DNA of 62,756 bases from a virus (lineage: Duplodnaviria; Caudoviricetes). The stretch spans positions 1-62,756 of IMG/VR virus record IMGVR_UViG_3300027869_000002. One strand, 5' to 3'. Shown here one piece after another: positions 12,675-60,523 of this stretch (within the stretch, counting starts at the first letter, position 1; each line of letters begins with the position of its first letter). The notes under the pieces are model-generated. The model was not told the DNA's origin. It ran no database searches and saw only the letters and a program-made list of their open reading frames with translations. Position numbers and translations under genes: made by a program.

Positions 12675-12767
12675 CCAGCCGGGCATGCGGTAAGGAGGCG
12701 CGCGGCAAGAAACAGCCGACCATCGGCACACTGACGGAGGGATTTCAAAGAGGGAAGCTCAGAAAAG
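12675..12767 (+). repeat. ~95-bp dispersed repeat family, copy A
   Basis: ccagccgggcatgcggta...gaagctcagaaaag. Confidence 0.75.
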
Positions 12768-12807
12768 CATAAGGCCTAATTCAACTTGGCAGGGGGGAAA
12801 AAGGAAA

Positions 12808-13107
12808 ATGCTACTCAAACGTTCAAAGCTACTTTTCGCGCTGGTCGCACTTCTGGCCAGTGCTTACTCAGGACAGGCCATCTGCCTGCGCGGTACCGGC
12901 ATGGGTCAAAACTATTCATGCTGGGTTATGGATTCCTGCGGCTCTTACATGAAGGGAATCTACTGGCAGTGCATCGAAGAACAGTGCGGGGTGAACTGGG
13001 GAGACGGCTGCTGGCCGGCGAATTTCTACGGGTGTGCCTTCTTCGGCTGCGTGAATCCATTCACCGGCAACTGCACGCCCTGCGCCACGGAGGTGCCCCA
13101 TGCGTAA
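12808..13107 (+). CDS. Secreted 10-Cys peptide
   Basis: AAGGA RBS, signal peptide, 10 Cys in the mature part. Confidence 0.7.
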   Translation: MLLKRSKLLFALVALLASAYSGQAICLRGTGMGQNYSCWVMDSCGSYMKGIYWQCIEEQCGVNWGDGCWPANFYGCAFFGCVNPFTGNCTPCATEVPHA

Positions 13108-13852
13108 GCCGCTGTTCTGGTATCTGCTGATCGCGGCGTGCGTGGCCGCCTATTATGGCGCCGCCCACTGGACTGTCAAAGTCGCCGCGCAATCCGCCAT
13201 CAGCGTAAAGCCGTTCACGCTCGAATTTGTGACGTACAATTCCGCCGGCAAGCTGGTTGAGGACCGCATCACCGCGCGCAGAAGCGATGGGTCGGAGGTT
13301 ATGGTTTCGATGTCGCCGGCAGGGAAGAACCGCCGCATCGATTTCATGGACGGCGCTTCGATGGCGCTGCTCGACGCGGTGAAGATCCGGATGTCAGGGA
13401 TCGTCGCCGCAGACCGGACTGCCGCCCGAAAGACCATGCTCACAAACCCGCCGACGGATTGTCTCTTTCCCGGCGAGACACTGGCGAGCCGCACCACCAC
13501 TGGAGGCGTGGCCGTCAACGTGGTCAAATCAACCAGGGGGAGTTATAGCCTGACTGAGGACCGCGCGCCCGCGTACGCTTGCAAGGCGCTCGATGCCCTC
13601 GGCCAGGACCTGCAGCCGGATGGCACCTGGGTTACCCGCTTCCAGGCCCGCCTGGTGGCCTTCACGCCCGGCGAACCGGATGCAAGGATCTTTGCACCCG
13701 GCGACGGATATCGCGAAATGTCGCCCTCGCAGGTCCGCGACGAAGCACTGCGCGGTCAGGGGGTCACCAAGCAATCCTGTCCCGCCTGCTTCTCGCAAAG
13801 CGCCCAGGACATGGACGCGGAGTATAACGCGGCCCAGGGGAGGAAGCCGTAA
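13100..13852 (+). CDS. Exported/membrane-anchored beta-rich protein
   Basis: GGAGG RBS; N-terminal hydrophobic helix. Confidence 0.75.
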   Translation: MRKPLFWYLLIAACVAAYYGAAHWTVKVAAQSAISVKPFTLEFVTYNSAGKLVEDRITARRSDGSEVMVSMSPAGKNRRIDFMDGASMALLDAVKIRMSGIVAADRTAARKTMLTNPPTDCLFPGETLASRTTTGGVAVNVVKSTRGSYSLTEDRAPAYACKALDALGQDLQPDGTWVTRFQARLVAFTPGEPDARIFAPGDGYREMSPSQVRDEALRGQGVTKQSCPACFSQSAQDMDAEYNAAQGRKP

Positions 13853-13854
13853 GA

Positions 13855-14325
13855 ATGGCGAGCGAAAAGCGCGGCCTGTTCATGGAATCGACGGAGATCG
13901 ATCCCGCGCGCACCGCCGGGGAGATTGTCTCGGAGCTGGTGCGCAACGGGGCTACGTCCATCAATACCGATTACAAGGACGGGCAAGTGTGCGGGCTGCG
14001 CTGGATCATGAAGGTGAACGGCATCGACGTGCTGTTCGATATGCCAGTGCGGATCGATCCGGTAATGGCGATTTTCAAAAAGCGCGCGGAGGACGGCTAC
14101 CGCTCACTCACTCAGGCCGATGAAATCCGGATGCGCGGCAAGGCCGAGCGCGTGGCATGGCGTCAGTTGCTCCGTTGGGTGCAGGCCCAAAACGCCATGA
14201 TCGAAACAGGGATGGTGCAGGCAGCCGAAGTCTACATGCCCTACATGGTCGTGCACGCCTCCGGGCAAACGCTCTTCCAGCACATGAGCGGATCTCAGTT
14301 CAAGATGCTGACAGCCGGGAAGTGA
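13855..14325 (+). CDS. Phage hypothetical protein
   Basis: AERVAWRQLLRWVQAQ...EVYMPY...GQTLF motif. Confidence 0.75.
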   Translation: MASEKRGLFMESTEIDPARTAGEIVSELVRNGATSINTDYKDGQVCGLRWIMKVNGIDVLFDMPVRIDPVMAIFKKRAEDGYRSLTQADEIRMRGKAERVAWRQLLRWVQAQNAMIETGMVQAAEVYMPYMVVHASGQTLFQHMSGSQFKMLTAGK

Positions 14326-14394
14326 ATCCAGCGCGGGGTTAACCTCAGACAACGTTGCGGGCATCACCGGCAGGGGTGGGAAAATCGGAGAACC

Positions 14395-14805
14395 GTGATG
14401 AAGATTATCTGTCTCGGATTCCTAGTGCTGGTGGCCATCGGCTCCGTAATGAACTCGGTTCAGCAAGAACGGGATCGCGCTGCCGAAGTCAAACGGCAGG
14501 CGTCCCTTACGGAACCGCAGCGCCAGCAGGAAAAACTCAACAACCTGAAACGCAGCGCGGTGGCGAAGGCGCTTGAAAACCGGCTGCTCGATGCAGGATT
14601 CGACGTGCAGTGCACGCCAGTGATAGGCAACGGAGAATTATTTATTACCGGCCCCGTCGTAAACCGGGTGTTCGCGCGGCACTTCATGACCCGCGAGACG
14701 GTCAAGTCACTCAGAAAGGCTGGCTTTGACACCCTCGCCTTTTCGAACGGCACAAGCGCACTCTCCGCCTCGACCTATTCCGAGCGTTATGATCTGACCC
14801 GGTAG
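14395..14805 (+). CDS. Membrane-anchored hypothetical protein
   Basis: GGAG RBS; N-terminal TM helix. Confidence 0.65.
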   Translation: MMKIICLGFLVLVAIGSVMNSVQQERDRAAEVKRQASLTEPQRQQEKLNNLKRSAVAKALENRLLDAGFDVQCTPVIGNGELFITGPVVNRVFARHFMTRETVKSLRKAGFDTLAFSNGTSALSASTYSERYDLTR

Positions 14806-14933
14806 CTTCCGTCGCCCACAGCCAGCACGTCACTTCCCAGTCCCAATCGTCCGAGCCGATTTCGCATTCGATATCCGTGCTGCGGGTGTCCATAGGGGAG
14901 CCTCGAACGTGCGGACGATGTGACTACCAGAGA

Positions 14934-15029
14934 CCATCCGGGCATGCGGTAGGAGACGCCCGGCAGTAGATCACTGACAAGGTGCAACTGAAGCCGCGAG
15001 CGATTAGAAGGCGGCGAAGCTCCGAAAGG
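14934..15029 (+). repeat. ~95-bp dispersed repeat family, copy B
   Basis: ccatccgggcatgcggtaggag...gcgaagctccgaaagg; lies next to the stop of the last late gene. Confidence 0.8.
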
Positions 15030-15035
15030 CATAAA

Positions 15036-15302
15036 TCAGGCAGCCGGTGCCGGGGGTGCTGGCGCGGCAATCACAACTGGCGCGGCGATTACCCTGGGTT
15101 TGCGTCGCTCACCGACCCGATTTTTATTTGACGCCAGGGTCTGCGTCAGATCGAAGAACCAAGCGTTCAAATAGCCGCATTCTTCGAGCGGCGCCGGCAT
15201 GGTCGAGGCGGCGTCCACAAACAGCTTGCCGCCCACGGCCACCACGGTAGCCCAGGGAATCACGTGCAGGATTTGAGAGAGTGTTGCGAGTATAGGTGTC
15301 AT
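15036..15302 (-). CDS. Small membrane protein, possibly holin-like
   Basis: Hydrophobic N-terminal half; end of late operon. Confidence 0.55.
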   Translation of the reverse strand: MTPILATLSQILHVIPWATVVAVGGKLFVDAASTMPAPLEECGYLNAWFFDLTQTLASNKNRVGERRKPRVIAAPVVIAAPAPPAPAA

Positions 15303-15305
15303 AGG

Positions 15306-15698
15306 TCAAAAGGAGTTGCTGTAGCCGGCAGCGCCCATCTGCGCCCAGGAGTTCGGGGCATAGCACCAGTAGAAATTTCCGATCGCATCGAACGCCATCT
15401 GGCCGGGAATGCCGGCGGAGTTGTGATGTGCTGGTGTCGCGACCCGAAGAACGGGGGGCGCGCCCGCGTCGATAGCGTTGCCGTTCGCGTCGAAGATCAG
15501 CGCGTCGCCGTCCGCCGCCGAACCGTTGAACATCTGGAACAGCGCGCCGGTGCCCTGCCTGGCGATCGTCCGCACCTGGTCGAAGTCAATATTCCCGCGC
15601 TGCGTTTTGACCGCCGCACCCGCTCCGCCCGAGGGATAGGAAAATACCAGCGGGAGCGTGCCGATGTGCGCGGCGGTGCCTGACCAGGTGAGGATCAT
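15306..15698 (-). CDS. Tail-fibre-associated structural protein
   Basis: TP...NSAGIPGQMAFD...FYWCYAPNSW fibre-type C-terminal motif. Confidence 0.6.
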   Translation of the reverse strand: MILTWSGTAAHIGTLPLVFSYPSGGAGAAVKTQRGNIDFDQVRTIARQGTGALFQMFNGSAADGDALIFDANGNAIDAGAPPVLRVATPAHHNSAGIPGQMAFDAIGNFYWCYAPNSWAQMGAAGYSNSF

Positions 15699-16436
15699 TT
15701 AAGCCTGCGGGATGATGGTGATAGGCCGCGCGTCCGCGCCGGTGGCGGTGAATAGGAAGTTGATGATGCCGCCGTTCAAGTCCGTGTTCGCCAGGTTGAT
15801 CAGATAGAAGCCGCTTCCGAGTTCCGTGACCGCATTGGCGCAGGCGCCCAAGGCTCCGCCATCGATGGAACGGACGGCAGTGACTGTAGCCCCCAGCTTG
15901 GGCGTCACGTGATCGGAGGATTGCACCAGGTAGAACGCAAAATTGTTAAACGCCGTGTTCTTCTTCACCTGCATCTCGCCAGGCGCGTAGGTCACGCGGC
16001 CGCTGGCATCGCCCGTGGGCAAGCCGCCATTCGCTCCCGCCGCGGCGTTGGGGAGTGCCGTCAATCCAGCGCGCACGCCATCCTGGTTCGACCAGGCCGT
16101 CAATTCCACCTCGATGGCAACTGCGCCCATATTGGCGGCCCCTTGCAGGTAGAGAGTCACCAGGTCCGCGCCGGTGATCAGCGCAGCGTTGGGGATGCCG
16201 ATTTCGTAGAGACCCGGCATGTTGGTCGCATCGACTTCTATGAATCCCCCGGTGGCCCAGGTGCCAAGCGTCATGGTGGCGAGCGTGACAGCCACGCTTC
16301 CCGCTCCCGTGTTGCGCTTGTAGTAGCACGTCAGGCCGGAAGTACCGAACGCGAGCCCGGTGCGCCCTAGACCTGTCGAGCTATTCGGAATGTAGACCTG
16401 GATGATTTGCGAAGTGGTGCCGACTTGACGTTCCAT
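15699..16436 (-). CDS. Virion structural protein (tail tip/fibre)
   Basis: Gly/Thr/Ala-rich; EVDATNMPGLYEI and TELGSGFYLINL repeated beta-sandwich motifs. Confidence 0.65.
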   Translation of the reverse strand: MERQVGTTSQIIQVYIPNSSTGLGRTGLAFGTSGLTCYYKRNTGAGSVAVTLATMTLGTWATGGFIEVDATNMPGLYEIGIPNAALITGADLVTLYLQGAANMGAVAIEVELTAWSNQDGVRAGLTALPNAAAGANGGLPTGDASGRVTYAPGEMQVKKNTAFNNFAFYLVQSSDHVTPKLGATVTAVRSIDGGALGACANAVTELGSGFYLINLANTDLNGGIINFLFTATGADARPITIIPQA

Positions 16437-16463
16437 TGTTTGGGCCTTTGGGGGAAAAGCGGA

Positions 16464-17429
16464 TTACTGCGCGACCAGTGAGCTGAAGGAGCTATGGAGG
16501 AAGGTCACAGAGGAAGTGTTCGAGGCGTTATTTGCGTTGATGAACCCGCCGCAGTTGGTCACCGCAGCCAGGTTCCCGCTGGTCGATGCGGTGAGCGTGC
16601 GCCAGCCGCCCGTGGTTCCTCCTGGGGTGCCAACGCCGTCGAAGGAGTAGTGATAGGAGAGCGTTCCCGAAGAGTTTCCTACGTGAATCCAGATCTGGGT
16701 GCCCGCTGGCTGCGAGTTAAAGCCGTCGGCGTTGAGTGAAGAGGAAGCGGAGGTCGTGGTCGCCCAGGTTTCGCTGGCAATGACCGATGAGGACCCGTTA
16801 AAATTCACCCCGACGCCCGTCAGCTTGGTGCCGTCGTCCACTTCGATGCCCGCAAACGGGTTGCCGCTCAGGTAGCCGCTTATAACGTAGAGAATGTACC
16901 AGTCGGTCCAGGCGCTGCCGCTGTTGCACGCTGAATGCAGGACGCGCAGACTGTTACCGCTGGTAGCCGTCGCGGCGATAGAGAGGAAATTCGTGCCCGA
17001 AACCGAAGCGGACGAGCCCTGATTCATCCAAGTGGCCCATGTCGGCTTAGTGAGCGTCCACATTCCGTATCCAGCAGGCGCGCCGCCGGTGGCCGACACC
17101 GTGCAACTCGAGCCCAGGGTGCAGGTGGTGCTGTTGACGGTTGTGGACGCGTTGGCAAGCGCGGCGTTCGGCACGGCCTCATAAGTGACCGCGTTGGTAC
17201 CGGTGACCACGGGGACGGTGTTCGTGGATGGGCTGGCACCATAGGTCACGCCGTGGACCTTGGCAACCGTGGCCGCGGCGGATCCGCAGCACGAAGCCGT
17301 GACGTCCCCGGTTAAAGCGGTCAGTCCCGCCACTCCGGTGGTCAGGGGCGTCTGTCCGATGGCGGACGCCACGATGATGATGAGCAGCGCGAAAATTCCA
17401 AGGCGCACCTTGCGCCAGTCGATATGCAT
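16464..17429 (-). CDS. Fibre/receptor-binding-like protein with N-terminal signal peptide
   Basis: LTGDVTA fibre repeat, lectin-like C-terminus, hydrophobic N-terminal leader. Confidence 0.6.
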   Translation of the reverse strand: MHIDWRKVRLGIFALLIIIVASAIGQTPLTTGVAGLTALTGDVTASCCGSAAATVAKVHGVTYGASPSTNTVPVVTGTNAVTYEAVPNAALANASTTVNSTTCTLGSSCTVSATGGAPAGYGMWTLTKPTWATWMNQGSSASVSGTNFLSIAATATSGNSLRVLHSACNSGSAWTDWYILYVISGYLSGNPFAGIEVDDGTKLTGVGVNFNGSSSVIASETWATTTSASSSLNADGFNSQPAGTQIWIHVGNSSGTLSYHYSFDGVGTPGGTTGGWRTLTASTSGNLAAVTNCGGFINANNASNTSSVTFLHSSFSSLVAQ

Positions 17430-17439
17430 GCGAGTTCCT

Positions 17440-18114
17440 TTAGTGGGTGTATTGCGTGACAGGTGGATCGTCGGTCGATTTGGGAGCCACGGTAAACGTG
17501 ACGGTTGCCCCGCTCGCCGTGTAGTCCGTGGTGGGAATCTGCTCTACGCCATTCAGCCACACGGTCTGCGAGGAAACGGGATTCGGCGTGTAGCTTGAGG
17601 TGAAAGCGGTGTTTGATCCGTTCAAGGTGCCCGAGAGGTTCTCGCGGACGATACTGGGTCCGGAGCTCCCGGCGCCGCGTTCGGTGAAGTAGTTCGTGCC
17701 ATCCGACGCGATGTAGATGCCCTGGCCCGGCTGCAGCACGATCGACGCGGACGATCCGTCAAGATTCGCGCCTGCAGGAGGCGACCCGCTTAACGGGGTG
17801 ATCGTGAGCGTGGGAGTGACCGGCGGGCTTCCGGCAGTGACGCTCGCGTTCTGGATGAAGACGTCCCATTGTCCAAAGGGGGGCGCCGAGGGAAGCGTGA
17901 ACGTGCCGTTGGCCGTGCCTTCGAATACCAGCAGCATCCCGCAGTCGGAGCTGAGGAGCTGATAGCTGACGGTTTTGACCGCGGCCCCGCCGGTATTCGG
18001 CACATACGCGGAGTCGTTCCGCGGCGTGGAGGTGTCGCGCTGCCACTTGGCGTTCTGGCGTCCGGAGGGCGCCGCGGGCGTCGCGTCGTTCAGGTTTTGC
18101 TGGTTGGCAGGCAT
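17440..18114 (-). CDS. Tail fibre/baseplate-associated protein (2 GSPP motifs)
   Basis: GTLNGSNTAFT...WLNGVEQ..TTDYT fibre motif. Confidence 0.7.
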   Translation of the reverse strand: MPANQQNLNDATPAAPSGRQNAKWQRDTSTPRNDSAYVPNTGGAAVKTVSYQLLSSDCGMLLVFEGTANGTFTLPSAPPFGQWDVFIQNASVTAGSPPVTPTLTITPLSGSPPAGANLDGSSASIVLQPGQGIYIASDGTNYFTERGAGSSGPSIVRENLSGTLNGSNTAFTSSYTPNPVSSQTVWLNGVEQIPTTDYTASGATVTFTVAPKSTDDPPVTQYTH

Positions 18115-18153
18115 GACCGCAATGCGCTATATGTGTTGGGCGGAGGAATCCGA

Positions 18154-18585
18154 ATGGCACCGAAACAGATTGTGCGTCCCCCACTGAAAACGCCGGAAGC
18201 AGAGAAGCCGTCCGAAGTAAAGAAACCCGCCGAGGCAGAGAAAAAAGCCGAAGCACATGACAGGCGGAGTGCCGCGGGCGTAGCGTGGAAGAAGCCTCTC
18301 CCGCGAGAACCAGACCATCTCCTGTGGAAACGCGCCCGCGCCGAAAATGCGCGCGTGGTGATTCGCCTGCTAACCGGCGACGTGATCGCTGGCTTGGTGG
18401 CGGACTCCGGCTTGTACACCGTGATGATTCAAAGCGACGACGGCCAAGTGCTCGTTTTTAAAAACGCGATCGCGACGGTTCATGCCCCGTTCACCAGCAG
18501 CTCGAAAGAGTCGAAGCCGGACGAGCCGCCGGGCCCCACGACGGTTCCCCCACCTCCTGGCAGCGCCACGATCGATCCGATGTAA
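18154..18585 (+). CDS. hfq: Hfq/Sm-like RNA chaperone, antisense to the late operon
   Basis: GGAGGA RBS; Sm1-like VVIRLLTGDVIAGLVADSGLYTVMI and Sm2-like VLVFKNAIATV (compare Hfq VYKHAISTV). Confidence 0.7.
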   Translation: MAPKQIVRPPLKTPEAEKPSEVKKPAEAEKKAEAHDRRSAAGVAWKKPLPREPDHLLWKRARAENARVVIRLLTGDVIAGLVADSGLYTVMIQSDDGQVLVFKNAIATVHAPFTSSSKESKPDEPPGPTTVPPPPGSATIDPM

Positions 18586-21500
18586 GTGTTTCCCGGCACG
18601 CCCACTAGCGCCGCGGAGGTCTGGCAAATCCCTACGAGATTCGTCTGCCCCGGTGAGTCTCCGGTGTAGCCCGGATCTGTGATGGTCACGTAATAGGTCG
18701 TCGGCACTGAAGGCGCGGGAATGGTGAACACGCGCGCATTGTAAACCACCGTGTTCGACGGAAAATTCGCCGTCACCTGCGCCATATCGATGGTGGTGGC
18801 GGTGGGATTTGACAGCGCCGCCGATGGAGCAACCGGCGGAGAGCCCGCGGGCGTGGGAGTCACGGAATAGCTCGATGGATTTCCGGATGCCGAGCCCGCC
18901 GCGCCCGTCGGGGTGTAGGCGTATGGAGTGCAGTCGGCCAGGTCCTGGACCTGCGCGATGTTCGAATTAAAGGCCGCGAATTTGAAATAGAGCGTCTTGC
19001 CGATCCACGTCGGATCCAAGGCCAGGCGCATGATGCCGGTGTAGGGCGGTCCCACGAAACAGAATCGCGATGTGCCGCTTTGAGACAACGGCACGGCTGG
19101 AATGATCGGCCCTTGGTGGAAGACGCCCTGATTCGGCGCAGGGCAGCCGAAGACTCCGCGGTCCAGGTGATTTCCCACCGGCGGAGATCCCGTCGCGAGC
19201 GCCTTCAGCGCGTAGATTTCCGTGCCGACCAGCTCCGCCAGAGCGTAGGTCATCAGCTCGTATGGAATCCCCGTCACCTGGTTGCCGCTGGGGGGAAGCG
19301 CGATGGCTCCGAAGTGGATGGCGTTCTGTCCATCCGGCCCGGCCAGCGTGTCGTTCTGCGCCGAGACAAGTGGTACGGCGACATCCCACACGGCTAGTTG
19401 CGATTGATCGGAGCCCAAGGGCAGCGATGGATTTTCGCGCAGGTTCCAGGCAAAGTGCGGAGTGATGGTGAAGGGGTCCTGGTTCTGATTGTTCGCGGCG
19501 TCGTAGCCGAACGCGATGACCAGACTGCCGGGCTGGTTGACCGGGTAGGCTCCGCTCGAGATAGTGAAGGCGCCGCCGAAAATCGCCTGGTTAAACGAGA
19601 ACGTGAAGGGCAGGACACTGGGGGGCGAGCCCGTGGTGGCCAGGTCGGAGTATTCGAGCGCCGCGAACAGAATCTCTCCTGTTCCCGATTGAAACGATAC
19701 CGTAACCGTGTTCCCGCCCGAGACGATGTTCAGCGCGGCGTATACGTAGACCTTGGAGTAGACGCCGAAATCGGAGACGGCGGAGGTGGTGAACAGCAAC
19801 CCGTAGGAGTTGCCGTTCGAGTCTGAGACGTTGACGCCCAGCGGCATGCTTTCGCGCGTCGCAATGATCAGTAGGATGGCGTTGCCCGGATTGTTCGAGA
19901 GTGGAAAGATCTTGGAGGCGGTGGAGGCGCTGACGGCGGCCGTTGAACAGGACTGCTGATAGAGCGGGGAAGTGGCCGCCCCCGTCACCAGACACGGATA
20001 CGTGAAGGCGTCCTCGTCGGTGGCCGAATAGGAATCCAGCGTCCCGTGGCATTCCGAAAGGTCTACGATGAGATCGTTCGTTGAATCGGGCGACGGATGC
20101 GCCGCCCAGGGTTGGGTGAGCCATCCGGTGGTGGCGTTACCTAAGAGCGCGTTCGAGGGCGGGGCGTTGTTTCCGCCGACGACACTGCCGCCCTGCACCA
20201 AAGGCGCCACGGGCTGGTAGCTGTTCCCGCCGTCTGTCGAGACATACACGAAGCAGCCGCCGTAGTCCGGGATGACCGGCGGACTCCCCACGGCGGCGCC
20301 GCCGGAGACGGCCAGCCACAATTCGGGCTGCGTGTTCCCTCCCGCGAGTCTCGGTACCGGCTCGAAGAGCACCGGAATATTCACCGATCCCGGAGCTCCG
20401 GTTTTCGGAATGTATCCCTGCTGCTGAGTCGCGGGAAGTTCGAGGGGCGCGTAGCAGCCGTAGATAAACGGCTCCGCCGTGCACTTCAGGCCGAGGTCTT
20501 TGTCTTCATCGCATGAGAGCAGGCGGACCGGGACTTTCACATATGGCACAGGCACCGTTCCGCCCGGCCCCTGCGTGTTCGGCATCATGGAGGCCACGGG
20601 AACCGTGACCAGGTCGCCAGGTTCGAACAGTTTCCATTTCGCGTTCAGCGTGAACTCGGTCTGATTTCTGACCAGGTCCGCCAGTCTCACCTGGATGTCG
20701 AGATACATTCTCGAGACCGCCGGCGACTGGAACATGGGCATGCGCTTGGGCGAGTCCTTGCGCGGCCCGTAGAGCGCTACCGCTCCGGATTCCGGCTCCG
20801 AGATGTTGACTTCGTTGTATTGGGATGCCCGGTTGGGATGCGAGACGCTCAGAATGTCCGGTACGTTCACCTGCGCCTTGCGCGTGACAGTGACGGGCGG
20901 AGTATCCGGGCTCGATGTGATGAAGTCGGACTCGACCAGGTCAACGATGGGGCCCGCCGCGGTGGGCGCGTTGTAGACGGCGCCGTTTCCAACCGCCGAG
21001 ACTTCCGAGCGCGCGATGGACTTGAGCGAGAAGCCCGACCAGACCGGCCAGGCATCCATGGCTTCGTAGAGCTGCCCCAGGATGTCCGAGCCCCTGACCT
21101 GCGAATCAAGAAACAGCGAGCCCCACAGTCCCGCGGCCCGGCACTGGTTTCGCACGATCTGGAGCGACGGCTTGTCGAGAATGTCCCCGATCACATTGCC
21201 GAGGGCGGGGGGATAGTTCGGAGGCTGCGAGCACTTGAACGCCAGCAGGGCCACGTGCGCGGGGGTGTGGCTTGCGCCCACAGTGTGAGCGGTGTATTGG
21301 TACGTCCCTGGAAATTGCACCACGCGGTATTGCTCGCGGCAGAGCGCGGTGAGCACGGTAAGATCGGCCACGTCCGGATTCAGCAGGTTCTGCCACAGCG
21401 CCACCGGAGGAACGGCGCCTCCTCCAGAGAGTTGGGAATAATCCGCGATCGCCAGGATATATTCGGGCGTGCCCTGGACTCCCGTCGTCGTGATGGAAGC

Positions 21501-22970: not shown

Positions 22971-22990
22971 GGAAGTGGGAAGATCGGGCT

Positions 22991-23486: not shown

Positions 23487-23984
23487 TTAATTTAGCCTGA
23501 ACGGATCAAACACCGCGATTTCGTGATGCGCCCACATGGGATGCCGCGTGGCGTCGGCTTCTGAAACTACCGGAGCGACTGCGTGCGCAATCAGCGGCCA
23601 GGCGAGTACGATGCCGCCGTGGTTATACACGCGGGAAACTCCCACTCTGACCAGCAGCAGGTTCCCCGGGTCAATTCTAGTGGACCGGTACGCCACGCCT
23701 TCCATGGCCTTTTCGGCGTGTCTGAGCAGGCGCACCATGTAGCGCTGCTCGCGCGTGTGACAGCACCAATCGAGATGATAGACGCCCAGGCCTCCGTAGA
23801 TGGCAGACTCGGAAGCCTCGCCGGATTCGACGAGCACGGATCCCAGAAACGTGGCGCAGTCGCACCCCACGCCCTTTAGCCTGGCGCCCAAGCGGTAGGG
23901 TGTGCCGATCCAGCTCCGCGCGATCGCAACAAGTGCGGCTCTACGATCCGCCAAGAGAGGAGCTGGGGACGAACAGGAATCCAT
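23487..23984 (-). CDS. NlpC/P60 tail-tip peptidase
   Basis: ARSWIGTPY...KGVGCDC...NHGGI. Confidence 0.85.
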   Translation of the reverse strand: MDSCSSPAPLLADRRAALVAIARSWIGTPYRLGARLKGVGCDCATFLGSVLVESGEASESAIYGGLGVYHLDWCCHTREQRYMVRLLRHAEKAMEGVAYRSTRIDPGNLLLVRVGVSRVYNHGGIVLAWPLIAHAVAPVVSEADATRHPMWAHHEIAVFDPFRLN

Positions 23985-24882: not shown

Positions 24883-24898
24883 GCAAAATCTTTAGGGA

Positions 24899-24990
24899 TT
24901 GGTGAGCTTCGCGGCGCATCAGTCGCGCGATTTCGTCGGGGAACTGGAGCCCGTTGTCTTGTCGTGCGGCTTCCGCTGGTAGAGATGGGT
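24899..24990 (-). repeat. Repeat family copy L1 (inverted partner of copy C)
   Basis: ttggtgagcttcgcggcg...gtcggggaactgg...agatgggt; close match to L2. Confidence 0.85.
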
Positions 24991-25098
24991 GACGGTCGCC
25001 AGAAATCTAAAGTGAAACTTTAATGGCCCGTAAAGAAATCCGCAGGCAGTAAAAAAAAGCGCATCAAAGTCCGCCGTGTGGACGCTGCCACCCTCATC

Positions 25099-25194
25099 CC
25101 AGCCGGGCCTGCGGTAGCTCTCGCACGGCAGGAAAGCGGTCTACAGTTCCCCGGTTGCATCAGGAGTTTCAGAACGCCGCGAAGCTCAGAAGAG
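25099..25194 (+). repeat. Repeat family copy C
   Basis: ccagccgggcctgcggta...cagttccccgg...cgccgcgaagctcagaagag. Confidence 0.85.
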
Positions 25195-25232
25195 ACCACC
25201 CCGGGGGGTTGACTCCATCGGCGGAAAGAGCG

Positions 25233-25538
25233 ATGCTTCCGGGAATGGAATATCCCGGAGGAAAGAACGCGCCCGGCGTCTACCACCGCATCATCAACCT
25301 GATGCCGCCGCACGAAACGTACATCGAGCCTTTCGCGGGAAGCTTCGCGATCGGCAGGCTGAAGCGGCCGGCCTCGCTCAACATCGCGATAGACCTGGAT
25401 ATCGGCTCGCTCAAAATGCTATCTCGGCTCGGGCTTCCGGGAGCGGGAGAACATCCGCCGCCAGATCAAGCGCTGGAAAGGCAAGCTGGAACGGATGCCG
25501 CTATTGAAGCGCCAGGCCATGCTCGCGGCGATCGCTGA
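25233..25538 (+). pseudogene. Truncated Dam-like DNA adenine methyltransferase
   Basis: YPGGK...IINLMPPHETYIEPFAGS...IAIDLD motif I present; catalytic DPPY half missing. Confidence 0.7.
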
Positions 25539-25647: not shown

Positions 25648-26397
25648 TTAAGCCGCCGGCGGCCGCGAGCTAACGAGCTTCAGCGTCCCGGTGCCGTTGC
25701 GCGCGTTCTCTCCGCCGATGGTCCACAACTGCTGCGCCCACTGTTCGAATTCCGAGGTGTCGGATTTCAGCCTCACGCGGAAATAGAAGTTGAACGTGGC
25801 ACTGATCGGCCCGGTGGGTTGGGCGGCCCATTGAATCACGAGGCCCCGCCAGGAATAGCCGGGAATCGCAACGCCCGGGCCCAGGATAGTGTAGTCCGTG
25901 CCGTTGTTCTTCAATACGCCGTTCGCATAGACCGCGATGGTGCTCGCCGGGTTTAGGTCAGTGACATCCTCCCAGAACAATCCCCCCATGTTCCGCTGGA
26001 TGGGCGAGTAGTAAACCGGAGGCGAGCCGCCGTCGTTGACCAGTTGCAGCTCAGCCTGGGTGTTGGGAACCGGGGGAGAGCCTGAAAGCGCAGGACCCAC
26101 CGAGTCATCTGACGGATCGTCGAACAGGATGTCGTTCAATTGCCCCTGGCAGGCCAGGATGAATCCCATGAAATAGCGCAGGTCGGTGTACGGCGCGTAC
26201 GGTTGTGTGTTCCCCGAGCCTGGCCAGGCGTCGAAGAGAAACTCGTACATCAGTGTGAAGGTCCAGACGGGATTGTAGGTTTGCGCGATCCTTACGGTGT
26301 CTTCTCCAGGCGAGGCTTGGACGATGGTCTTGCCGTCCATGGATTTGAGGACGGTCCAGGTGAGTCCCTTGATATTGGCGGGCCAGATAGCTGACAT
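25648..26397 (-). CDS. Distal tail protein (DUF2460-like; 2 GSPP motifs)
   Basis: Follows tape measure; ISATFNFYFRVRL C-terminal motif. Confidence 0.75.
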   Translation of the reverse strand: MSAIWPANIKGLTWTVLKSMDGKTIVQASPGEDTVRIAQTYNPVWTFTLMYEFLFDAWPGSGNTQPYAPYTDLRYFMGFILACQGQLNDILFDDPSDDSVGPALSGSPPVPNTQAELQLVNDGGSPPVYYSPIQRNMGGLFWEDVTDLNPASTIAVYANGVLKNNGTDYTILGPGVAIPGYSWRGLVIQWAAQPTGPISATFNFYFRVRLKSDTSEFEQWAQQLWTIGGENARNGTGTLKLVSSRPPAA

Positions 26398-26402
26398 GGA
26401 TT

Positions 26403-26495
26403 TTGGTGAGCTTCGCGGCTTTGTCAGTCGCGCGATTTCGTCGGGGAACTGGAGAGCGGTGTCTTATCGTGCGGCTTCCGCTGGTAGAGATGGGT
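26403..26495 (-). repeat. Repeat family copy L2 (inverted partner of copy D)
   Basis: ttggtgagcttcgcggc...gtcggggaactgg...agatgggt. Confidence 0.85.
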
Positions 26496-26509
26496 TATAC
26501 TGCGGCCAG

Positions 26510-26740
26510 ATGAGCGCGAAGCACTTTGGAAGATTCCTGTTCGACGTTCAATTCTGTACCTTCGAAGCCAAGGATAAATACGGCATGGACTCCACTGGCG
26601 ACATTCTCGCCCTCGTGCTCATTCAATTCGGATGGGCGTGCGCTTGGGTGTGGATGTTCTCTAATTTGGCGATGTGGGTGTGGATAGCCACCCAGCAAGA
26701 GATTCTGCGAATGCTCGGAATGTCAGGGCTACCCATTTAA
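26510..26740 (+). CDS. Small Trp-rich membrane protein between inverted arms
   Basis: ILALVLIQFGWACAWVWMFSNLAMWVWIA hydrophobic stretch; alternative start 26585. Confidence 0.5.
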   Translation: MSAKHFGRFLFDVQFCTFEAKDKYGMDSTGDILALVLIQFGWACAWVWMFSNLAMWVWIATQQEILRMLGMSGLPI

Positions 26741-26769
26741 AGCAACGTGGCCGGAGTGCCCCCTCAGCC

Positions 26770-26865
26770 CCAGTCGGGCCTGCGGTAGCTCTCCCACGAA
26801 AGGGAATCGGTCTACAGTTCCCCGACAGCATCAGGAGTTTCAGAACGCATCAAAGCCCAGAAAAG
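26770..26865 (+). repeat. Repeat family copy D
   Basis: ccagtcgggcctgcggta...cagttccccgac...aaagcccagaaaag. Confidence 0.85.
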
Positions 26866-26886
26866 ACAGACTCAGAAGAGACAGAC

Positions 26887-41710: not shown

Positions 41711-41762
41711 GAGGAAAAGGTGGGGCCGCTGGTAGGCAGCAGCCCCCAAGCGAGGCTTCTGG

Positions 41763-51091: not shown

Positions 51092-51097
51092 ATCGAT

Positions 51098-55026: not shown

Positions 55027-55044
55027 GTTTACACGCTCACACGC

Positions 55045-56848: not shown

Positions 56849-57940
56849 TTACTTCGGTCCTTTGATGCCCAGGTGATCGCACGGTGCGTCGGTGAGATCC
56901 TGTCTCACTCCCAGGTATCGTTCGGTGGTTTGAATCGACGAATGGCCCAGGCTGAGCTGGATTTGTCCTAACTCCGCCTTGCCGCCGTGCGCCAGTTTTG
57001 CAAACGTGCGCCGCAGATCGTGGGGCGCAAGGTGAGGAAGCGCCATCGCGCGGCCGTACGCGGCAACCAGGTCGTGGATGTTCTGGCCTACCAGCGGGCT
57101 CGATTGCAGCCGGCCGTGGTTATCGAGCGATCGGAAGACGCTGCCTGAGTTGCCCGCTCCAGAGAACTCTTGCCAGGCGTCGATCGCCAGCTTGGCCCAG
57201 TCCGGCATGGGCACGCTGCGGACGCGGTTCCCTTTGCCGCGAATGTCCAGGATCATCCAGCGCCCGTTGCGCTGCTGGATATCTACCCACTTCAGGTTTG
57301 CGGCTTCCGCGCGCCGCAGGCCTGCACCGATCAGTACGGCGAGGATCGCCCGATCGCGTACCCCCTTTAACGTCGAGGGGTCCGGAAGACCGAGGAGCTG
57401 CTCGGCCTGGTCCATGGTGAGCCAGGTGCCGGTGCGGACGCCTGAAGATTTCTCGCCTTTCACCCGGGCGATGCCGGCCGCCAGCTCGGGAGCGAGTAGT
57501 CCGTTGTCCGCAGCTTCCGCTGCCAGGCGCCGGACGGCCGTCAATTTCAGGTTCATTGAAGCAGGCGCCAGGCCCGAGGCCGCCAGGTGCCTTCCGTACC
57601 GCTGGACGAGCGCCTTCGAAAACGGTTCTCCTCGAGGGACCCACTCCAGGAAGCGCGATAGCGCCAGGTTATAGGCGCGCCGGCTTTGGGGTGAGCTGAG
57701 GGAATCGAGGACCAGTGCCTTGATGCGGTGCAGATCGAGGGGATCCGCCACCGGCTGGATTGCCGAGGGCGCCGGCACTATCGCCAGGTCCGCCGCGGCT
57801 GGCCGGGCCCGCTCGCTGATTTGGTTTTCGGTGGTAACGCCGGCGCCGCTCGCTGATTCCACAGAGGCGCGCTCGAGGTCCGGCTGGCTCAAAACCAAGG
57901 CCCCAGGAGCCAGAGAATGCGGAGTTGGAGGCGTTCCCAC
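56849..57940 (-). CDS. Tyrosine recombinase 1 (no arm-binding domain; resolvase-like)
   Basis: GLRRAE, GKGNRVR, HDLRRT, LGHSSIQTTERY catalytic motifs. Confidence 0.92.
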   Translation of the reverse strand: MGTPPTPHSLAPGALVLSQPDLERASVESASGAGVTTENQISERARPAAADLAIVPAPSAIQPVADPLDLHRIKALVLDSLSSPQSRRAYNLALSRFLEWVPRGEPFSKALVQRYGRHLAASGLAPASMNLKLTAVRRLAAEAADNGLLAPELAAGIARVKGEKSSGVRTGTWLTMDQAEQLLGLPDPSTLKGVRDRAILAVLIGAGLRRAEAANLKWVDIQQRNGRWMILDIRGKGNRVRSVPMPDWAKLAIDAWQEFSGAGNSGSVFRSLDNHGRLQSSPLVGQNIHDLVAAYGRAMALPHLAPHDLRRTFAKLAHGGKAELGQIQLSLGHSSIQTTERYLGVRQDLTDAPCDHLGIKGPK

Positions 57941-58128: not shown

Positions 58129-58225
58129 CGCGAACTGCCGGCGGCCGGAAAGCGTCCTCGGGAAACCGCGGCCGGAACTTTCCGAAATCCCAACCGTGAC
58201 TTAAAGGTGACCAAAAGGTGACTGC

Positions 58226-58408: not shown

Positions 58409-58483
58409 CCGGTCGATCGGCGCCTGAATCGGGAGCGGGGCTAAAGGGGTGGGATAGCCGCTCGCTCGCCGGGCGCCCAGGTT

Positions 58484-58672
58484 TCAGTACAGTTTCAGTG
58501 CCAACGCCACCCGCGGGTCTTCGAAGCGGTGCAGATCGAGGCGCCGGTAGAGCGTCCGCAAACGCGCGCGCACGGTAGAGACGGACATGCCGAGCTCGCG
58601 CCCGATGCTCTCATTCGAACGCGCCTGTATGACCAGGCCGACGATGGCCGTTTCGCGTGGGGTCAGTTCCAT
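58484..58672 (-). CDS. Stand-alone LuxR-type HTH protein
   Basis: LTPRETAIVGLV...SNESIGRELGMSVSTVRARLRTLYRRL. Confidence 0.8.
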   Translation of the reverse strand: MELTPRETAIVGLVIQARSNESIGRELGMSVSTVRARLRTLYRRLDLHRFEDPRVALALKLY

Positions 58673-58897
58673 TTAGGATGGCACCACCACCACGGGCGGA
58701 AGCCCCATGCGCTCGCGGCAGACAGTCTCCTTGACGTAATGCACGGAGATGCGGCGCTCGAAGTCTGCCAGTTGCTCGGTCATTTTGGCGCTCAGCAGTG
58801 CGTTCGCGGCCGAGCTGCGGGCATTGTAAATGGTCCAGATACAGCTTGCGACCCAACCTAAAAGCAGCCCTGCGGCCGAAAACCATGCTGTATTCAT
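58673..58897 (-). CDS. Small membrane protein, possibly holin-like
   Basis: One TM helix and a short coiled coil. Confidence 0.6.
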   Translation of the reverse strand: MNTAWFSAAGLLLGWVASCIWTIYNARSSAANALLSAKMTEQLADFERRISVHYVKETVCRERMGLPPVVVVPS

Positions 58898-58915
58898 TAT
58901 GGACCTTCGCGTCTT

Positions 58916-59422
58916 TTATTTACCGACAGCCTTGGCAACGGCCGCGGCGCGGGCTTGGAGGGCGGGAGCCTGTTTCACGTCTGAAACTGTCACAACAGGA
59001 GGCGGAGCGGTGGGCGCGAAGAGTGCCAGCAACACCCGAATGCCGGCATCGGCCGCGGAGAGGTAGGTCTGGGCCTGGGGGGAGAAGTTCGAGATATTGA
59101 TGCCCGTCAAGCACGCGGTGCCCTTGATCGCTAGTTGGGTTCCGGTAGCGCCCGCGGCGATGGCTTGACTGGCGCACGCGAGACCGGTCGAGAAGTCACC
59201 GAGGCCGGCTTCCACCTCAGCCTTTACCGACGCCGACATGTTCGGCATCAGCGGGACGACGGCTTCACCGACGGCGATGCCTACCGTGATCTTCGCGATG
59301 ACATCGGAGGGTTGCGGAGGCGCCGGCGTTGCTCCGGTGGTTGCCGACTTCGCGCAACCGGCCATACCGACGATGAGGACCGCGGCGAGCGCGACGATTG
59401 TCAGGCGTTGGGAGAATTGCAT
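58916..59422 (-). CDS. Lipoprotein
   Basis: Signal peptide with lipobox MAGC. Confidence 0.7.
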   Translation of the reverse strand: MQFSQRLTIVALAAVLIVGMAGCAKSATTGATPAPPQPSDVIAKITVGIAVGEAVVPLMPNMSASVKAEVEAGLGDFSTGLACASQAIAAGATGTQLAIKGTACLTGINISNFSPQAQTYLSAADAGIRVLLALFAPTAPPPVVTVSDVKQAPALQARAAAVAKAVGK

Positions 59423-59455
59423 TTCTAAAAGTCCTTTTTTGAAAATGTGGGAATT

Positions 59456-59833
59456 TCAGGCCGCGCAGCTGTTCAAAACTTCGCGGTAAATGCGCCGGTT
59501 TCGGCGCCGGATGGGCTTGATGGTCCAGCAGCGATCGGGGTTGCCGGTCCAGTCCGTCTGGTCAACGGCGTGGTTATGTGACAGGCGCCGCGGGTTCCCC
59601 TGCTTCGCTTTCATGGCCAGATCGTCAGACGTGGCCGTGATGCGCAGCTCGACAATGCGCCGCTCGCCCTTGTTGCGCTTGCGCACGGCTTTCACGTTGG
59701 GCGCCTTCAGGAGCAACTGAACGCGAGATGGGTCGGCCAGCTCGATGAACCTATCCCCTTCAAACACAGGCACAAATCCAGCGGCAATCAGAATCGCCGA
59801 CATGCGCGGGCCTGGATAGGTGGAGACTGACAC
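59456..59833 (-). CDS. Basic hypothetical protein
   Basis: ORF in the late orientation. Confidence 0.55.
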   Translation of the reverse strand: MSVSTYPGPRMSAILIAAGFVPVFEGDRFIELADPSRVQLLLKAPNVKAVRKRNKGERRIVELRITATSDDLAMKAKQGNPRRLSHNHAVDQTDWTGNPDRCWTIKPIRRRNRRIYREVLNSCAA

Positions 59834-59895
59834 TTCGGGTGTAACGGGTGAAACCAGAGTGGATTGATGCGGGCGCTCTGCCGCCCAGCGCTGCC

Positions 59896-60342
59896 TTACG
59901 CCGCCTGCAATGCAGCTTCTGTCGGCCGGGGGATGGCCGTCAGGTGGCGTGAGCCTCGCCGCTCGTTGGTGGTATAGAGGCCCTTCTTGTCTTTCGGGTC
60001 GGGGAGCTGACTAGCAGCGATTTGGCAGCGGTCGAGAAACTCCGCGGCGCCCCACAATCGCTTCAGCTTTCGTTTACCGGCTAATGTTACTTCGCGCCGG
60101 AAGTCACACACTGAGATCAGGAGACGGGATTCCAACCCATCGATAAAGCCAGGATCGACGCCCCGCATGGAGGGGGGCAGCAGTTTCAAAAAATGCTCTC
60201 GCAGGTCTTCGAGCCGCTTGATTTTCGCCTGCCACGGGGCCAGGGCGATCGAAACCTCTTTGCTGAGGCGTGCCCATTCATCCACGGGATCTTCGAGACC
60301 CAGCGACTGAACGGTTACCTCGGGGGAGGGTGAGGCGGTCAT
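59896..60342 (-). CDS. Hypothetical protein
   Basis: ORF with N-terminal coiled coil. Confidence 0.6.
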   Translation of the reverse strand: MTASPSPEVTVQSLGLEDPVDEWARLSKEVSIALAPWQAKIKRLEDLREHFLKLLPPSMRGVDPGFIDGLESRLLISVCDFRREVTLAGKRKLKRLWGAAEFLDRCQIAASQLPDPKDKKGLYTTNERRGSRHLTAIPRPTEAALQAA

Positions 60343-60429
60343 TGTTCAGTCCGATTGTACGCAAAGGCACGGAGTCTGTAAATCGTCCCTGGGGCCTAAT
60401 GGAAGGGTATTAGGCTTCAAAGCCTAATT

Positions 60430-60523
60430 GATTTTGGAGCTTCGCGCGCCGCAATCGCTCGGTTTGTGGTTGCACCTGGTCACCGCTTGTCTGCCGCGCA
60501 CCTCCTACCGCAGGCCCGGCTGG
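60430..60523 (-). repeat. Repeat family copy E
   Basis: Reverse complement ccagccgggcctgcggtaggag...aggtgcaac...cgagcgatt...gcgaagctccaaaa, closest to copy B. Confidence 0.8.

What the first reader, a model, noticed from the sequence alone, without database searches (positions are those of the whole stretch)
12675..60523. Unannotated ~95-bp repeat family (7 copies) marking gene junctions and accessory-gene boundaries
Seen: copies A 12675-12767(+), B 14934-15029(+), C 25099-25194(+), D 26770-26865(+) and E 60430-60523(-) share CCA(G/T)(C/T)CGGGC(A/C)TGCGGTA at one end and a GAAGCTC-like motif at the other, with nearly constant 93-96 nt length. L1 (24899) and L2 (26403) are more diverged inverted members. 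All are intergenic. The GAAGCTC end lies close to a late-gene stop (B, D) or start (L1, L2), or points toward a downstream gene (A, C, E). No reading frame is conserved. Inference: these could be ends of a mobile or cassette element, sites for one of the two tyrosine recombinases (integron-like gene capture), a structured RNA family, or a complex regulator-binding element.
Basis: partly seen in the sequence, partly recalled or inferred. Interest (0 to 1): 0.8.

Follow-up and report, generated by a model that had tools for sequence, protein, structure and literature searches.

The report
Two-ended intergenic repeat shared by phages
A non-coding DNA repeat of about 95 bases sits at gene junctions of this soil phage and, in far more copies, in an unrelated phage, where it brackets small inserted pieces of DNA, so it looks like a mobile junction module of unknown mechanism and not an RNA gene.

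Summary
The window is a complete 62.6-kb phage genome. It holds exactly seven copies of a ~95-nt non-coding repeat, all intergenic.

The same family occurs 26 times in an unrelated 84.5-kb viral genome (G411) and once in a third contig.

Copies have one of two 5' ends: type I (A-E) or type II (L1, L2). The two types pair head-to-head around 28-938 nt of variable DNA. One such unit (D, a small ORF, L2) fills a tape-measure/distal-tail junction that is a bare ATGA stop/start overlap in a relative.

Type II copies almost always lie just upstream of a gene start, in sense.

Not supported:
- an Rfam family
- a conserved RNA fold
- a reading frame
- an integron integrase
- sigma-70 promoter or terminator consensus inside the copies

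No copy was found in closer relatives, or in the GTDB and metagenome hits that I scored.

Best reading (0.45): a DNA-level, two-ended junction cassette that spreads among phages and probably supplies an expression signal to the next gene. The mechanism is not shown.

The parts
12675..12767 (+). copy A, type I (5' block CCAGCCGGGCATGCGGTA). It lies 27 nt after the stop of ORF 12208-12648 and 40 nt before the ORF 12808-13107 start.
14934..15029 (+). copy B, type I. It sits between convergent genes; its 3' end is 8 nt from the stop of the minus-strand ORF 15036-15263/15302.
24893..24993 (-). copy L1, type II (5' block CCCATCTCTACCAGCGGAA). It lies in sense, and its 3' end is 15 nt upstream of the baseplate-hub gene start (24882).
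25099..25194 (+). copy C, type I. It is head-to-head with L1 across a 102-110-nt AT-rich spacer and lies 38 nt upstream of the decayed Dam-like methylase ORF.
26396..26498 (-). copy L2, type II. It lies in sense, and its 3' end is 4 nt upstream of the distal-tail (DUF2460) gene start (26397).
26770..26865 (+). copy D, type I. It is head-to-head with L2 across ORF 26510-26740; its 3' end is 21 nt from the tape-measure stop (26887).
60430..60523 (-). copy E, type I. It lies between tyrosine recombinase 60929-61870 (-) and ORF 59896-60342 (-). It is followed by an 8-bp-stem palindrome (60409-60428) and a sigma-70-like site (60382-60354).
24893..25199 (.). unit 1: L1 plus spacer plus C, an inverted pair with the GAAGCTC ends outward. 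It lies between the hub start and the Dam-remnant start.
   Evidence: I9; hairpin z -3.64; arm duplex z -7.8
26396..26883 (.). unit 2: L2 plus small ORF plus D, with a duplicated A-rich tail. It fills the tape-measure/distal-tail junction, which is an ATGA overlap in relatives G001 and L142, 29 nt in G002/G004 and 35 nt in L147.
   Evidence: arm duplex z -4.8
26510..26740 (+). 76-aa hydrophobic ORF carried inside unit 2. It is antisense to the tail operon, lies in a low-GC stretch (52-55%), and has no homologue in relatives or family libraries.
25233..25538 (+). decayed Dam-like DNA methylase next to copy C. An intact 280-aa antisense version sits at the same junction in relative G002.

Best explanation
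The repeat is a non-coding DNA-level element and not an RNA gene. It acts as a modular 'junction cassette' end that comes in two forms.

Type I and type II share their outer ~75 nt, which ends in CGAAGCTC followed by an A-rich tail. They differ in their inner ~20 nt.

A full unit is a type I and a type II copy placed head-to-head, outer ends pointing away from each other, around 28-938 nt of variable DNA that may hold 0-2 small genes. Such a unit sits exactly between two genes. Single ends also occur.

The family spreads within and between phage genomes, by transposition-like insertion or by recombination between copies. I infer this step.

It is kept in a fixed polarity: the type II end lies in sense just before the next gene's start. 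I therefore infer that it also supplies what that gene needs after the insertion has cut it off from its upstream neighbour, namely a start region or a protein-bound expression signal.

Shown: the family, its two types, the pairing, the polarity, its presence in an unrelated phage, and one filled-versus-empty junction.

Inferred: the mobility mechanism, the enzyme, and any effect on expression.
For: 1. The family is real. There are seven copies in the window, all intergenic.

2. It occurs in other viral records. A profile built from 31 copies gives 26 hits in G411 and 1 in G410. In G411, 24 of the 26 do not touch a confident gene, although such genes cover 67% of that genome.

3. G411 is unrelated to the window phage. 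It has a P22-like portal and coat. Only 6 of 93 window proteins find a G411 homologue by blastp. Of 24 blastn HSPs between the two genomes, 18 are element copies.

4. Both end types occur in both genomes. L1 and L2 are 82-83% identical to a G411 type II copy, against 57-64% to the window's own type I copies.

5. Pairing is non-random. In G411, 7 of 10 type II copies have an inverted type I copy within 1 kb on their 5' side. Random placement gives a mean of 1.54, and 0 of 20,000 trials reach 7. The window has the same geometry twice: L1/C and L2/D.

6. One insertion can be seen. The tape-measure/distal-tail junction is an ATGA overlap in G001 and L142, 29 nt in G002/G004 and 35 nt in L147. In the window it is 489 nt made of D, a small ORF and L2, with the unit's two tails abutting the stop and the new start.

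7. The closest relatives lack the family. There are 0 hits in G001-G004, although G003 is syntenic at about 70% nt identity.

8. Polarity holds. For 10 of 11 classified type II copies, the next confident gene boundary beyond the 3' end is a gene start, and 8 of those lie within 184 nt.

9. The DNA inside or beside units is accessory: a low-GC hydrophobic ORF and a decayed methylase.
Against: - No transposase or other obvious mobilising enzyme was found in either phage. Pfam family lists were obtained for 91 and 82 ORFs; for the window only the first 25 of 34 families are shown.
- No target-site duplication is visible at the two window units.
- Copies are old and diverged, at 48-89% identity. 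Nothing shows recent movement.
- The source-sample contigs show one arrangement only.
- Only 3 of 8 units have strongly complementary arms, so the inverted-repeat character is weak in most.
- Type I copies have no single polarity. Of 21, 14 face a stop and 7 face a start.
- A, B and E are single ends.
- The interiors of the two window units are not homologous.
- No sigma-70-like promoter or intrinsic terminator consensus lies inside the copies, except a 9-of-12 match in L2. The expression role therefore has no direct support.
- Only one junction gives a clean filled-versus-empty comparison.
Confidence: 0.45

Rival explanations
1. It is a purely cis-regulatory element that does not move. A phage or host DNA-binding protein recognises it and controls a set of genes. 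It is shared by the two phages because they use the same host or the same regulator.
For: Type II copies lie in sense and upstream of a start in 10 of 11 cases.

Both end types are conserved across unrelated phages.

The two phages share a small LuxR/sigma-region-4-like HTH protein (window 58484-58672; 44% identity to a G411 ORF) and three proteins of unknown function.

Relative G003 has its own six-copy promoter-like cassette upstream of small genes, so repeated regulatory cassettes do occur in this group.
Against: B and D face only stops of convergent genes, and 14 of 21 type I copies face a stop.

No promoter or terminator consensus lies inside the copies.

Syntenic relatives express the same tail genes without the element.

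A regulatory role does not explain the head-to-head pairing around variable DNA.
Confidence: 0.2
2. It is a host chromosomal repeat (a REP- or MITE-like family moved by a host enzyme) that has invaded phages of that host.
For: The family is shared by two phages with different structural genes.

Neither phage shows a mobilising enzyme.

A second short GC-rich hairpin repeat is also shared by both phages. This fits a common host or a common gene pool.
Against: An anchored pattern that 4 of the 5 type I window copies match found only 2 places in one genome each of 185,579 species. Both match in the anchors only.

None of the 119 metagenome loci fetched with a looser pattern is a member.

No meaningful match was found in the plasmid or phage collections.

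The test is therefore weak.
Confidence: 0.15
3. The copies act as RNA. They could be a structured leader, a small RNA, or a loading or pause signal for a NusG-type antiterminator.
For: G411, with 26 copies, encodes a NusG-domain protein (56.8 bits, cut-off 22.2; PHROG 'transcription antiterminator', E 4e-25).

The most conserved core of type I (GCGGTAG) resembles, from my recollection, the core of the enterobacterial ops site.

Inverted units can form long hairpins in the late transcript (L1-C z -3.64).
Against: No Rfam match.

Single copies fold no better than shuffles on either strand, with z from -0.57 to +1.35.

RNAalifold gives 0 pairs on 31 copies.

The best candidate hairpin shows less covariation than shuffled controls: 0.115 against 0.130, with 476 of 500 shuffles at least as high.

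The window phage has no NusG domain at E<=1.

Many type I copies are antisense to the local genes.

The arms pair strongly in only 3 of 8 units.
Confidence: 0.08
4. The copies are recombination sites for one of the phage's tyrosine recombinases. This would be integron-like or dif-module-like cassette capture, or inversion.
For: Two Xer-like tyrosine recombinases are encoded. One of them (60929-61870) is absent from relative G003 and lies about 400 nt from copy E.

Cassette-like units are flanked by inverted copies.

G411 also has a tyrosine recombinase.
Against: Neither recombinase reaches the integron-integrase model: 35.6 bits against a cut-off of 265, and no hit for the other.

The G411 recombinase is only 26% identical to the window's.

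Active sites in direct order (C/D, L1/L2) would delete the essential distal-tail gene.

Copies are 48-89% identical with no shared exact core beyond short blocks.

No alternative joints appear in the source-sample contigs (contigs drop rare variants).
Confidence: 0.07

Closest known systems
PeSLs (promoter-early stem-loops), the mobile regulatory cassettes of T4-type phages. Arbiol et al. 2010, PMC2839356: abstract and section 13 read. Comeau et al. 2014, PMC4122927: abstract read.
   Same: Both are a dispersed intergenic repeat family inside phage genomes. Both sit between the stop of one gene and the start of the next, concentrate next to variable genes of unknown function, and mark the indels that distinguish related phages.
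   Different: PeSLs are defined by a sigma-70 consensus promoter plus a stable stem-loop terminator. Neither is found inside these copies.

The present family has two end types that pair in inverted order, occurs on both strands, and is shared by phages with unrelated structural genes.
MPME1/2, the ultra-small mobile elements of mycobacteriophages. Pope et al. 2011, PMC3029335: passages on MPME read.
   Same: Both are phage-borne insertions of a few hundred bp bounded by inverted ends, sometimes with a small ORF. Both are recognised by comparing filled and empty sites in related phages. Unit 2 here is about 490 bp with a 76-aa ORF.
   Different: According to that paper, MPME copies are identical or nearly so and about 439 bp long, with defined IR-L/IR-R ends and a 6-bp addition at the insertion.

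Here the ends are about 95 nt and of two types, copies are 48-89% identical, the interiors are unrelated, single ends are common, and no junction signature was found.
Start-associated sequences (SAS) and extended SAS of Cluster K mycobacteriophages. Pope et al. 2011, PMC3203893: passages of section 15 read.
   Same: Both are repeats of unknown function kept in one orientation just upstream of start codons of many unrelated genes. Both are phage-specific and absent from the host genomes searched. Some SAS carry imperfect inverted repeats.
   Different: An SAS is a 13-bp motif next to the start codon, and an ESAS adds 17-bp inverted repeats.

The present element is about 95 nt, also occurs facing stop codons, and forms units around inserted DNA.
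Integron attC sites with IntI. Features are given from my own knowledge; no paper was read.
   Same: Both are non-coding sites of 60-140 nt with conserved ends and a variable middle at cassette boundaries, in a genome that encodes tyrosine recombinases.
   Different: There is no integron integrase. Single copies have no internal dyad that folds better than shuffles. There is no one-orientation array next to the recombinase.
Bacterial MITE, REP and ERIC type intergenic repeats. Features are given from my own knowledge; no paper was read.
   Same: Both are short non-coding dispersed repeats confined to intergenic DNA, on either strand, often as imperfect inverted pairs.
   Different: The present family was found only in viral records so far. 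No chromosomal copies were detected with the pattern scans used. The two distinct end types and the start-proximal polarity of type II are not features of those families.

Membership tests
Any Rfam RNA family | A match to a curated covariance model | tested here: not met
   No match at gathering score over the whole window. At E<=10, two chance-level hits lie away from the copies in 12500-15200, and there are none in 9,267 nt around C, D, L1, L2 and E.
Structured RNA (generic) | Helices conserved across copies, with compensatory changes | tested here: not met
   Single-copy fold z-scores run from -0.57 to +1.35 on both strands. Five copies give 10 and 18 weak pairs with 1 and 2 compensatory. 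Thirty-one copies give 0 consensus pairs. The candidate 5' hairpin has a covariation score of 0.115 against a shuffled 0.130.
Integron (attC + IntI) | An integron-type integrase | tested here: not met
   TIGR02249 scores 35.6 bits against a cut-off of 265 for 56849-57940. There is no hit for 60929-61870.
Integron (attC + IntI) | Sites in one orientation, forming an array next to the integrase | tested here: not met
   The copies lie at 12.7, 14.9, 24.9-26.9 and 60.4 kb on both strands.
PeSL regulatory cassette | A sigma-70 consensus promoter inside the repeat | tested here: not met
   The only site overlapping a copy is a 9-of-12 match in L2. None overlaps the 8 copies in a 20-kb stretch of G411. 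Counts equal those of the shuffles.
PeSL regulatory cassette | A stable stem-loop terminator inside the repeat | tested here: not met
   One 5-bp minus-strand site lies in A. None lies in the other copies. Folds are no better than shuffles.
PeSL regulatory cassette | Location at variable junctions next to genes of unknown function that differ between related phages | tested here: met
MITE / MPME-like mobile element | Terminal inverted repeats | tested here: inconclusive
   There are eight head-to-head type I/type II units. Their arms are strongly complementary in 3 (z -8.1, -7.8, -4.8) and weakly in 5 (z -0.8 to -2.1).
MITE / MPME-like mobile element | Target-site duplication or another junction signature | tested here: not met
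   No duplication beyond a repeated ATG at the tape-measure/distal-tail junction. Flanks of the two units that look alike are part of the element.
MITE / MPME-like mobile element | Filled versus empty sites in related genomes | tested here: met
   Shown at one junction: an ATGA overlap in G001 and L142 against 489 nt in the window. The hub-side junction is confounded by an ancestral methylase gene.
MITE / MPME-like mobile element | A cognate transposase somewhere in the genome or host | tested here: inconclusive
   None appears among the Pfam families listed for 91 window ORFs (25 of 34 families shown) or for 82 G411 ORFs. The host is unknown.
Host REP/IS family | Many copies in bacterial chromosomes | tested here: inconclusive
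   The anchored pattern gave 2 anchor-only hits in GTDB species genomes. This was exact-pattern matching only, and the host was not identified.
ops-like site for a NusG paralogue | A cognate NusG-family protein, and the site in the sense strand of the leader | tested here: inconclusive
   A NusG-domain ORF is present in G411 but absent from the window at E<=1. Many type I copies are antisense. The resemblance to ops is recalled and was not tested.

The most novel reading that the evidence does not exclude
This may be a new kind of phage-borne mobile element. It would have two different ~95-bp ends (type I and type II), insert precisely at stop/start junctions of operons, carry small cargo genes, and bring its own start-proximal signal for the gene downstream.

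An enzyme not yet recognised as a transposase would move it. The candidates are the few proteins shared by the two phages:
- The family of window ORF 6481-7416. Its G411 homologue (19602-20429) is bracketed exactly by two inverted type I copies.
- The shared HNH and DUF968 nucleases.
Probability: 0.2. Interest if true: 0.8.

Novelty: new variant of a known kind. Interest (0 to 1): 0.6.

Why it matters
How phage genomes gain and lose accessory genes ('morons') between tightly coupled structural genes is only partly understood.

This family offers a concrete handle on that question. It is recognisable and has two end types. It sits at the insertion points, is shared by unrelated phages from uncultured soil hosts, and in one case fills a junction that is a bare stop/start overlap in a relative.

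If it is mobile, it is a new vehicle for gene flow among phages. It would also be a marker for finding inserted cargo, including defence and counter-defence genes, in metagenomic phage genomes.

If it is regulatory, it is a long, conserved, polar signal used by different phages of one host, and that would point to an unknown expression mechanism.

Tried and rejected
**Structured RNA.** Tried with Rfam, single folds, alifold, my own helix scan and pair counting. None gave support.

**Coding.** Rejected: mismatches show no periodicity and no frame is shared.

**Promoter or terminator consensus.** Scans gave nothing inside the copies apart from a 9-of-12 match in L2 and one 5-bp minus-strand site in A.

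**Searches for further members**
- Megablast and blastn of window segments and of copies against phages and plasmids gave nothing or chance hits.
- The exact 18-mer in viral contigs gave 2 hits that look like chance.
- The subtype motifs gave 0 hits.
None is a member, so real members may have been cut off.
- The GTDB pattern scan gave 2 anchor-only hits.

**Relatives of neighbouring genes.** The proteins of ORFs 13100-13852 and 60929-61870 found no relatives in viral contigs.

**Host.**
- Terminase tblastn gave only hits of 34% identity or less, to phages of many hosts.
- The distal-tail protein gave none.
- No terminase hit at 1e-60 appeared in 401 genomes of one phylum.

The host remains unknown.

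**Expression.** No RNA holder is listed. Only the source soil run holds the DNA.

**Source-run contigs.** They show one arrangement, and the contig graph breaks at L1 and L2. Contigs cannot show rare variants.

**Possible diverged copy.** One may fill the 126-nt distal-tail/hub spacer of relative L142/G407. It has both blocks at the family's spacing, directly before the hub start. It scores only 7.7 bits (E 0.17) and is not found at E<=0.1 by the 31-copy profile. I do not count it.

**Apparent likeness in G002.** The leader upstream of the hub gene looked similar, but the match is not significant.

**Window ORF 6481-7416.** The ESM Atlas gave nothing usable.

Full report
**What the window is.** Bases 1-127 repeat at 62630-62756, and the record is an IMG/VR virus with direct terminal repeats, rated complete. 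GC content is 61.8%.

Pfam finds a portal, capsid, prohead protease, large and small terminase, lysozyme, two tyrosine recombinases, DNA methylases and LuxR-type regulators.

The tail module runs on the minus strand:
- tape-measure protein, 26887-29607
- DUF2460 distal-tail protein, 25648-26397
- hub protein, 23941-24882 (weak phiJL001 Gp84 match, 19.3 bits, below the cut-off of 26)
- a 1,496-aa tail protein, 18480-22970

No cultured phage is similar at the DNA level.

**Check of the observation.** The 18-nt 5' motif matches exactly five times. It matches six times with up to 3 mismatches against 0.48 expected, and 0 of 100 shuffles reach six.

L1 and L2 are true members. Profiles built without them find them at E 8.5e-5 and 1.5e-5. 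Profiles built from them alone find C and D at 7e-8 and 1e-4.

There is no eighth copy. Identities are 70-72% (A/B/E), 82-85% (C/D), 87-89% (L1/L2) and 48-65% between these groups.

All copies are intergenic. There is no codon periodicity and no shared open frame.

**Not an RNA family that can be recognised.**
- Rfam gives nothing at gathering score. At E<=10 it gives nothing at the copies: only two chance-level hits elsewhere in 12500-15200 and none around the other copies.
- Each copy folds no better than its shuffles on either strand.
- RNAalifold on five copies gives a few weak pairs. On 31 copies it gives none.
- The best candidate hairpin has less covariation than shuffled controls.

**Context in the window and in relatives.** Four IMG/VR records share the distal-tail protein at 71-75% identity. 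One of them, G003 (56 kb, 90% complete), is syntenic with the window over 15.3-60.1 kb at about 67-81% nt identity. None of the four holds the element.

The tape-measure/distal-tail junction compares as follows:
- an ATGA stop/start overlap in G001 and L142
- 29 nt in G002 and G004
- 35 nt in L147
- 451 nt in L146
- 633 nt of unrelated insert in G003
- 489 nt in the window

The window's 489 nt are made of D (antisense), a 76-aa hydrophobic ORF in low-GC DNA, and L2 (sense). D's A-rich tail abuts the tape-measure stop, and L2's tail abuts a rebuilt ATG.

The distal-tail/hub junction holds an intact antisense Dam-like methylase in G002. The window has a decayed remnant of it, and G001/G003 have a 97-nt scar. 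In the window, L1, a 102-nt AT-rich spacer and C lie between the hub start and the remnant's start.

The block between A and B (four ORFs) and the recombinase next to E have no counterpart at these places in the relatives.

**The family exists elsewhere.** The last viral-contig scan, with a two-block pattern, returned 38 loci. Two of them score as members: L174 at 3.8e-7 and L185 at 5.7e-7.

L185 belongs to G411, an 84.5-kb viral genome rated 97% complete. The sequence-only model finds 24 copies there at E<=1.5e-5. The 31-copy profile finds 26. Of these, 24 do not touch a confident gene, although such genes cover 67% of that genome. G410, a 4.5-kb contig, has one copy.

G411 is a different phage. 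It has a P22-like portal and coat, a T4-type terminase and a 3,397-aa ORF. Only 6 of 93 window proteins find a G411 homologue by blastp. Of 24 blastn HSPs between the two genomes, 18 are copies of this element.

**Anatomy that emerges from 34 copies.** There are two 5' ends.
- Type II begins like L1 and L2: 9 classified copies in G411, plus one that is truncated at its 5' end.

Both types share the outer part, which ends in CGAAGCTC and an A-rich tail.

L1 and L2 are 82-83% identical to a G411 type II copy, but only 57-64% identical to the window's type I copies. The two types are therefore older than their spread into these phages.

Type II copies pair with an inverted type I copy on their 5' side, with the outer ends pointing away from each other. 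This holds for 7 of 10 in G411 within 1 kb. Random placement gives a mean of 1.54, and 0 of 20,000 trials reach 7. It holds for both type II copies in the window.

The enclosed DNA is 28-938 nt long and holds 0-2 small ORFs.

Beyond the 3' end of type II, the next confident gene boundary is a start in 10 of 11 cases. For type I it is a stop in 14 of 21 and a start in 7.

The arms of a unit are strongly complementary in only 3 of 8 units.

**Interpretation.** The data fit a DNA element with two end types that brackets inserts placed exactly between genes, and that has spread among phages.

I cannot say how it moves.
- No transposase was found.
- No target duplication was found.
- The copies are diverged.
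- The source-sample contigs show one arrangement.

The constant sense position of type II before starts suggests a second role in expressing the downstream gene. However, no sigma-70 promoter or terminator consensus lies inside the copies.

The tyrosine recombinases are generic Xer-like enzymes and not integron integrases.

G411 encodes a NusG-like antiterminator. The window does not.

**Comparison with known systems.** The closest concept is the PeSL cassette of T4-type phages (PMC2839356, abstract and section 13; PMC4122927, abstract). The defining promoter and stem-loop are not met here.

MPME elements (PMC3029335, passages) share the small size and the filled/empty logic. They are near-identical copies with a junction signature.

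SAS/ESAS repeats (PMC3203893, passages) share the start-proximal polarity and the unknown function. They are far shorter.

I therefore file this as a new variant of the known kind 'dispersed intergenic repeats or mobile cassettes of phage genomes'. It is not a member of any named family.

**Limits.**
- Gene calls are my own crude codon-usage calls.
- The host is unknown.
- There are no RNA data.

Noticed in passing
window 8476-8538 and 9692-9728; G411 at about 5100, 33939, 38128, 49942: A second short repeat is shared by the two unrelated phages at 82-92% identity. It is a GC-rich hairpin (stem GCGCCGG..CCGGCGC) preceded by T-rich sequence, in non-coding DNA.
   Followed up: partly
G003 (L134) about 2547-6458: The syntenic relative has its own six-copy ~90-nt cassette (82-99% identical). 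On the coding strand it reads as a sigma-70-like -35/-10, a Shine-Dalgarno site and a start codon, upstream of consecutive small genes. One of those genes is a homologue of window ORF 14398-14805.
   Followed up: partly
G003 18374-18528 and 37801-37953: A 155-nt two-copy repeat (92% identical) ends in a GC hairpin. One copy is inserted at a structural-gene junction that is only 64 nt in the window. It was not searched against Rfam.
   Followed up: no
L011 (G003) 3353-3985: A different 633-nt insert sits at the same tape-measure/distal-tail junction. It is bounded by direct repeats of a small palindromic motif and holds an antisense cysteine-rich ORF fragment. It may be another small mobile element.
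   Followed up: no
window 25233-25538; L010 4865-5707: A Dam-like methylase lies antisense between the distal-tail and hub genes. It is intact (280 aa) in relative G002, decayed in the window, and reduced to a 97-nt scar in G001/G003.
   Followed up: yes
G411 41296-41865 and 8902-19095: This phage encodes a NusG-domain 'transcription antiterminator' of 189 aa and a single 3,397-aa ORF.
   Followed up: partly
G411 19504-20542: The ORF 19602-20429 is 31% identical to window ORF 6481-7416 and has no known family. It is bracketed exactly by two inverted type I copies with their GAAGCTC ends facing the gene.
   Followed up: partly
L142 (G407) 3781-3906: The 126-nt distal-tail/hub spacer of this relative carries both conserved blocks at the family's spacing, directly before the hub start. 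It does not reach significance with the profiles.
   Followed up: yes
window 60354-60428: Just 3' of copy E lie an 8-bp-stem palindrome with a 4-nt loop (as scored by the scan) and then a sigma-70-like site (TTTACA, 17 nt, TACAAT) before ORF 59896-60342. A similar promoter-like site follows a G411 type I copy at 66456-66484.
   Followed up: no
window 7689-8059: Internal direct repeats (65-84% identical) lie within two adjacent small ORFs (7589-7795 and 7804-8064), which look like paralogues.
   Followed up: no
window 24920-24948 and 26425-26453: The public contigs of the source run break exactly at the identical 29-31-nt cores of L1 and L2. A 1,534-nt contig lies between them at the same depth as the rest, about 34. 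Assemblies of such phages may therefore be mis-joined at these repeats.
   Followed up: no
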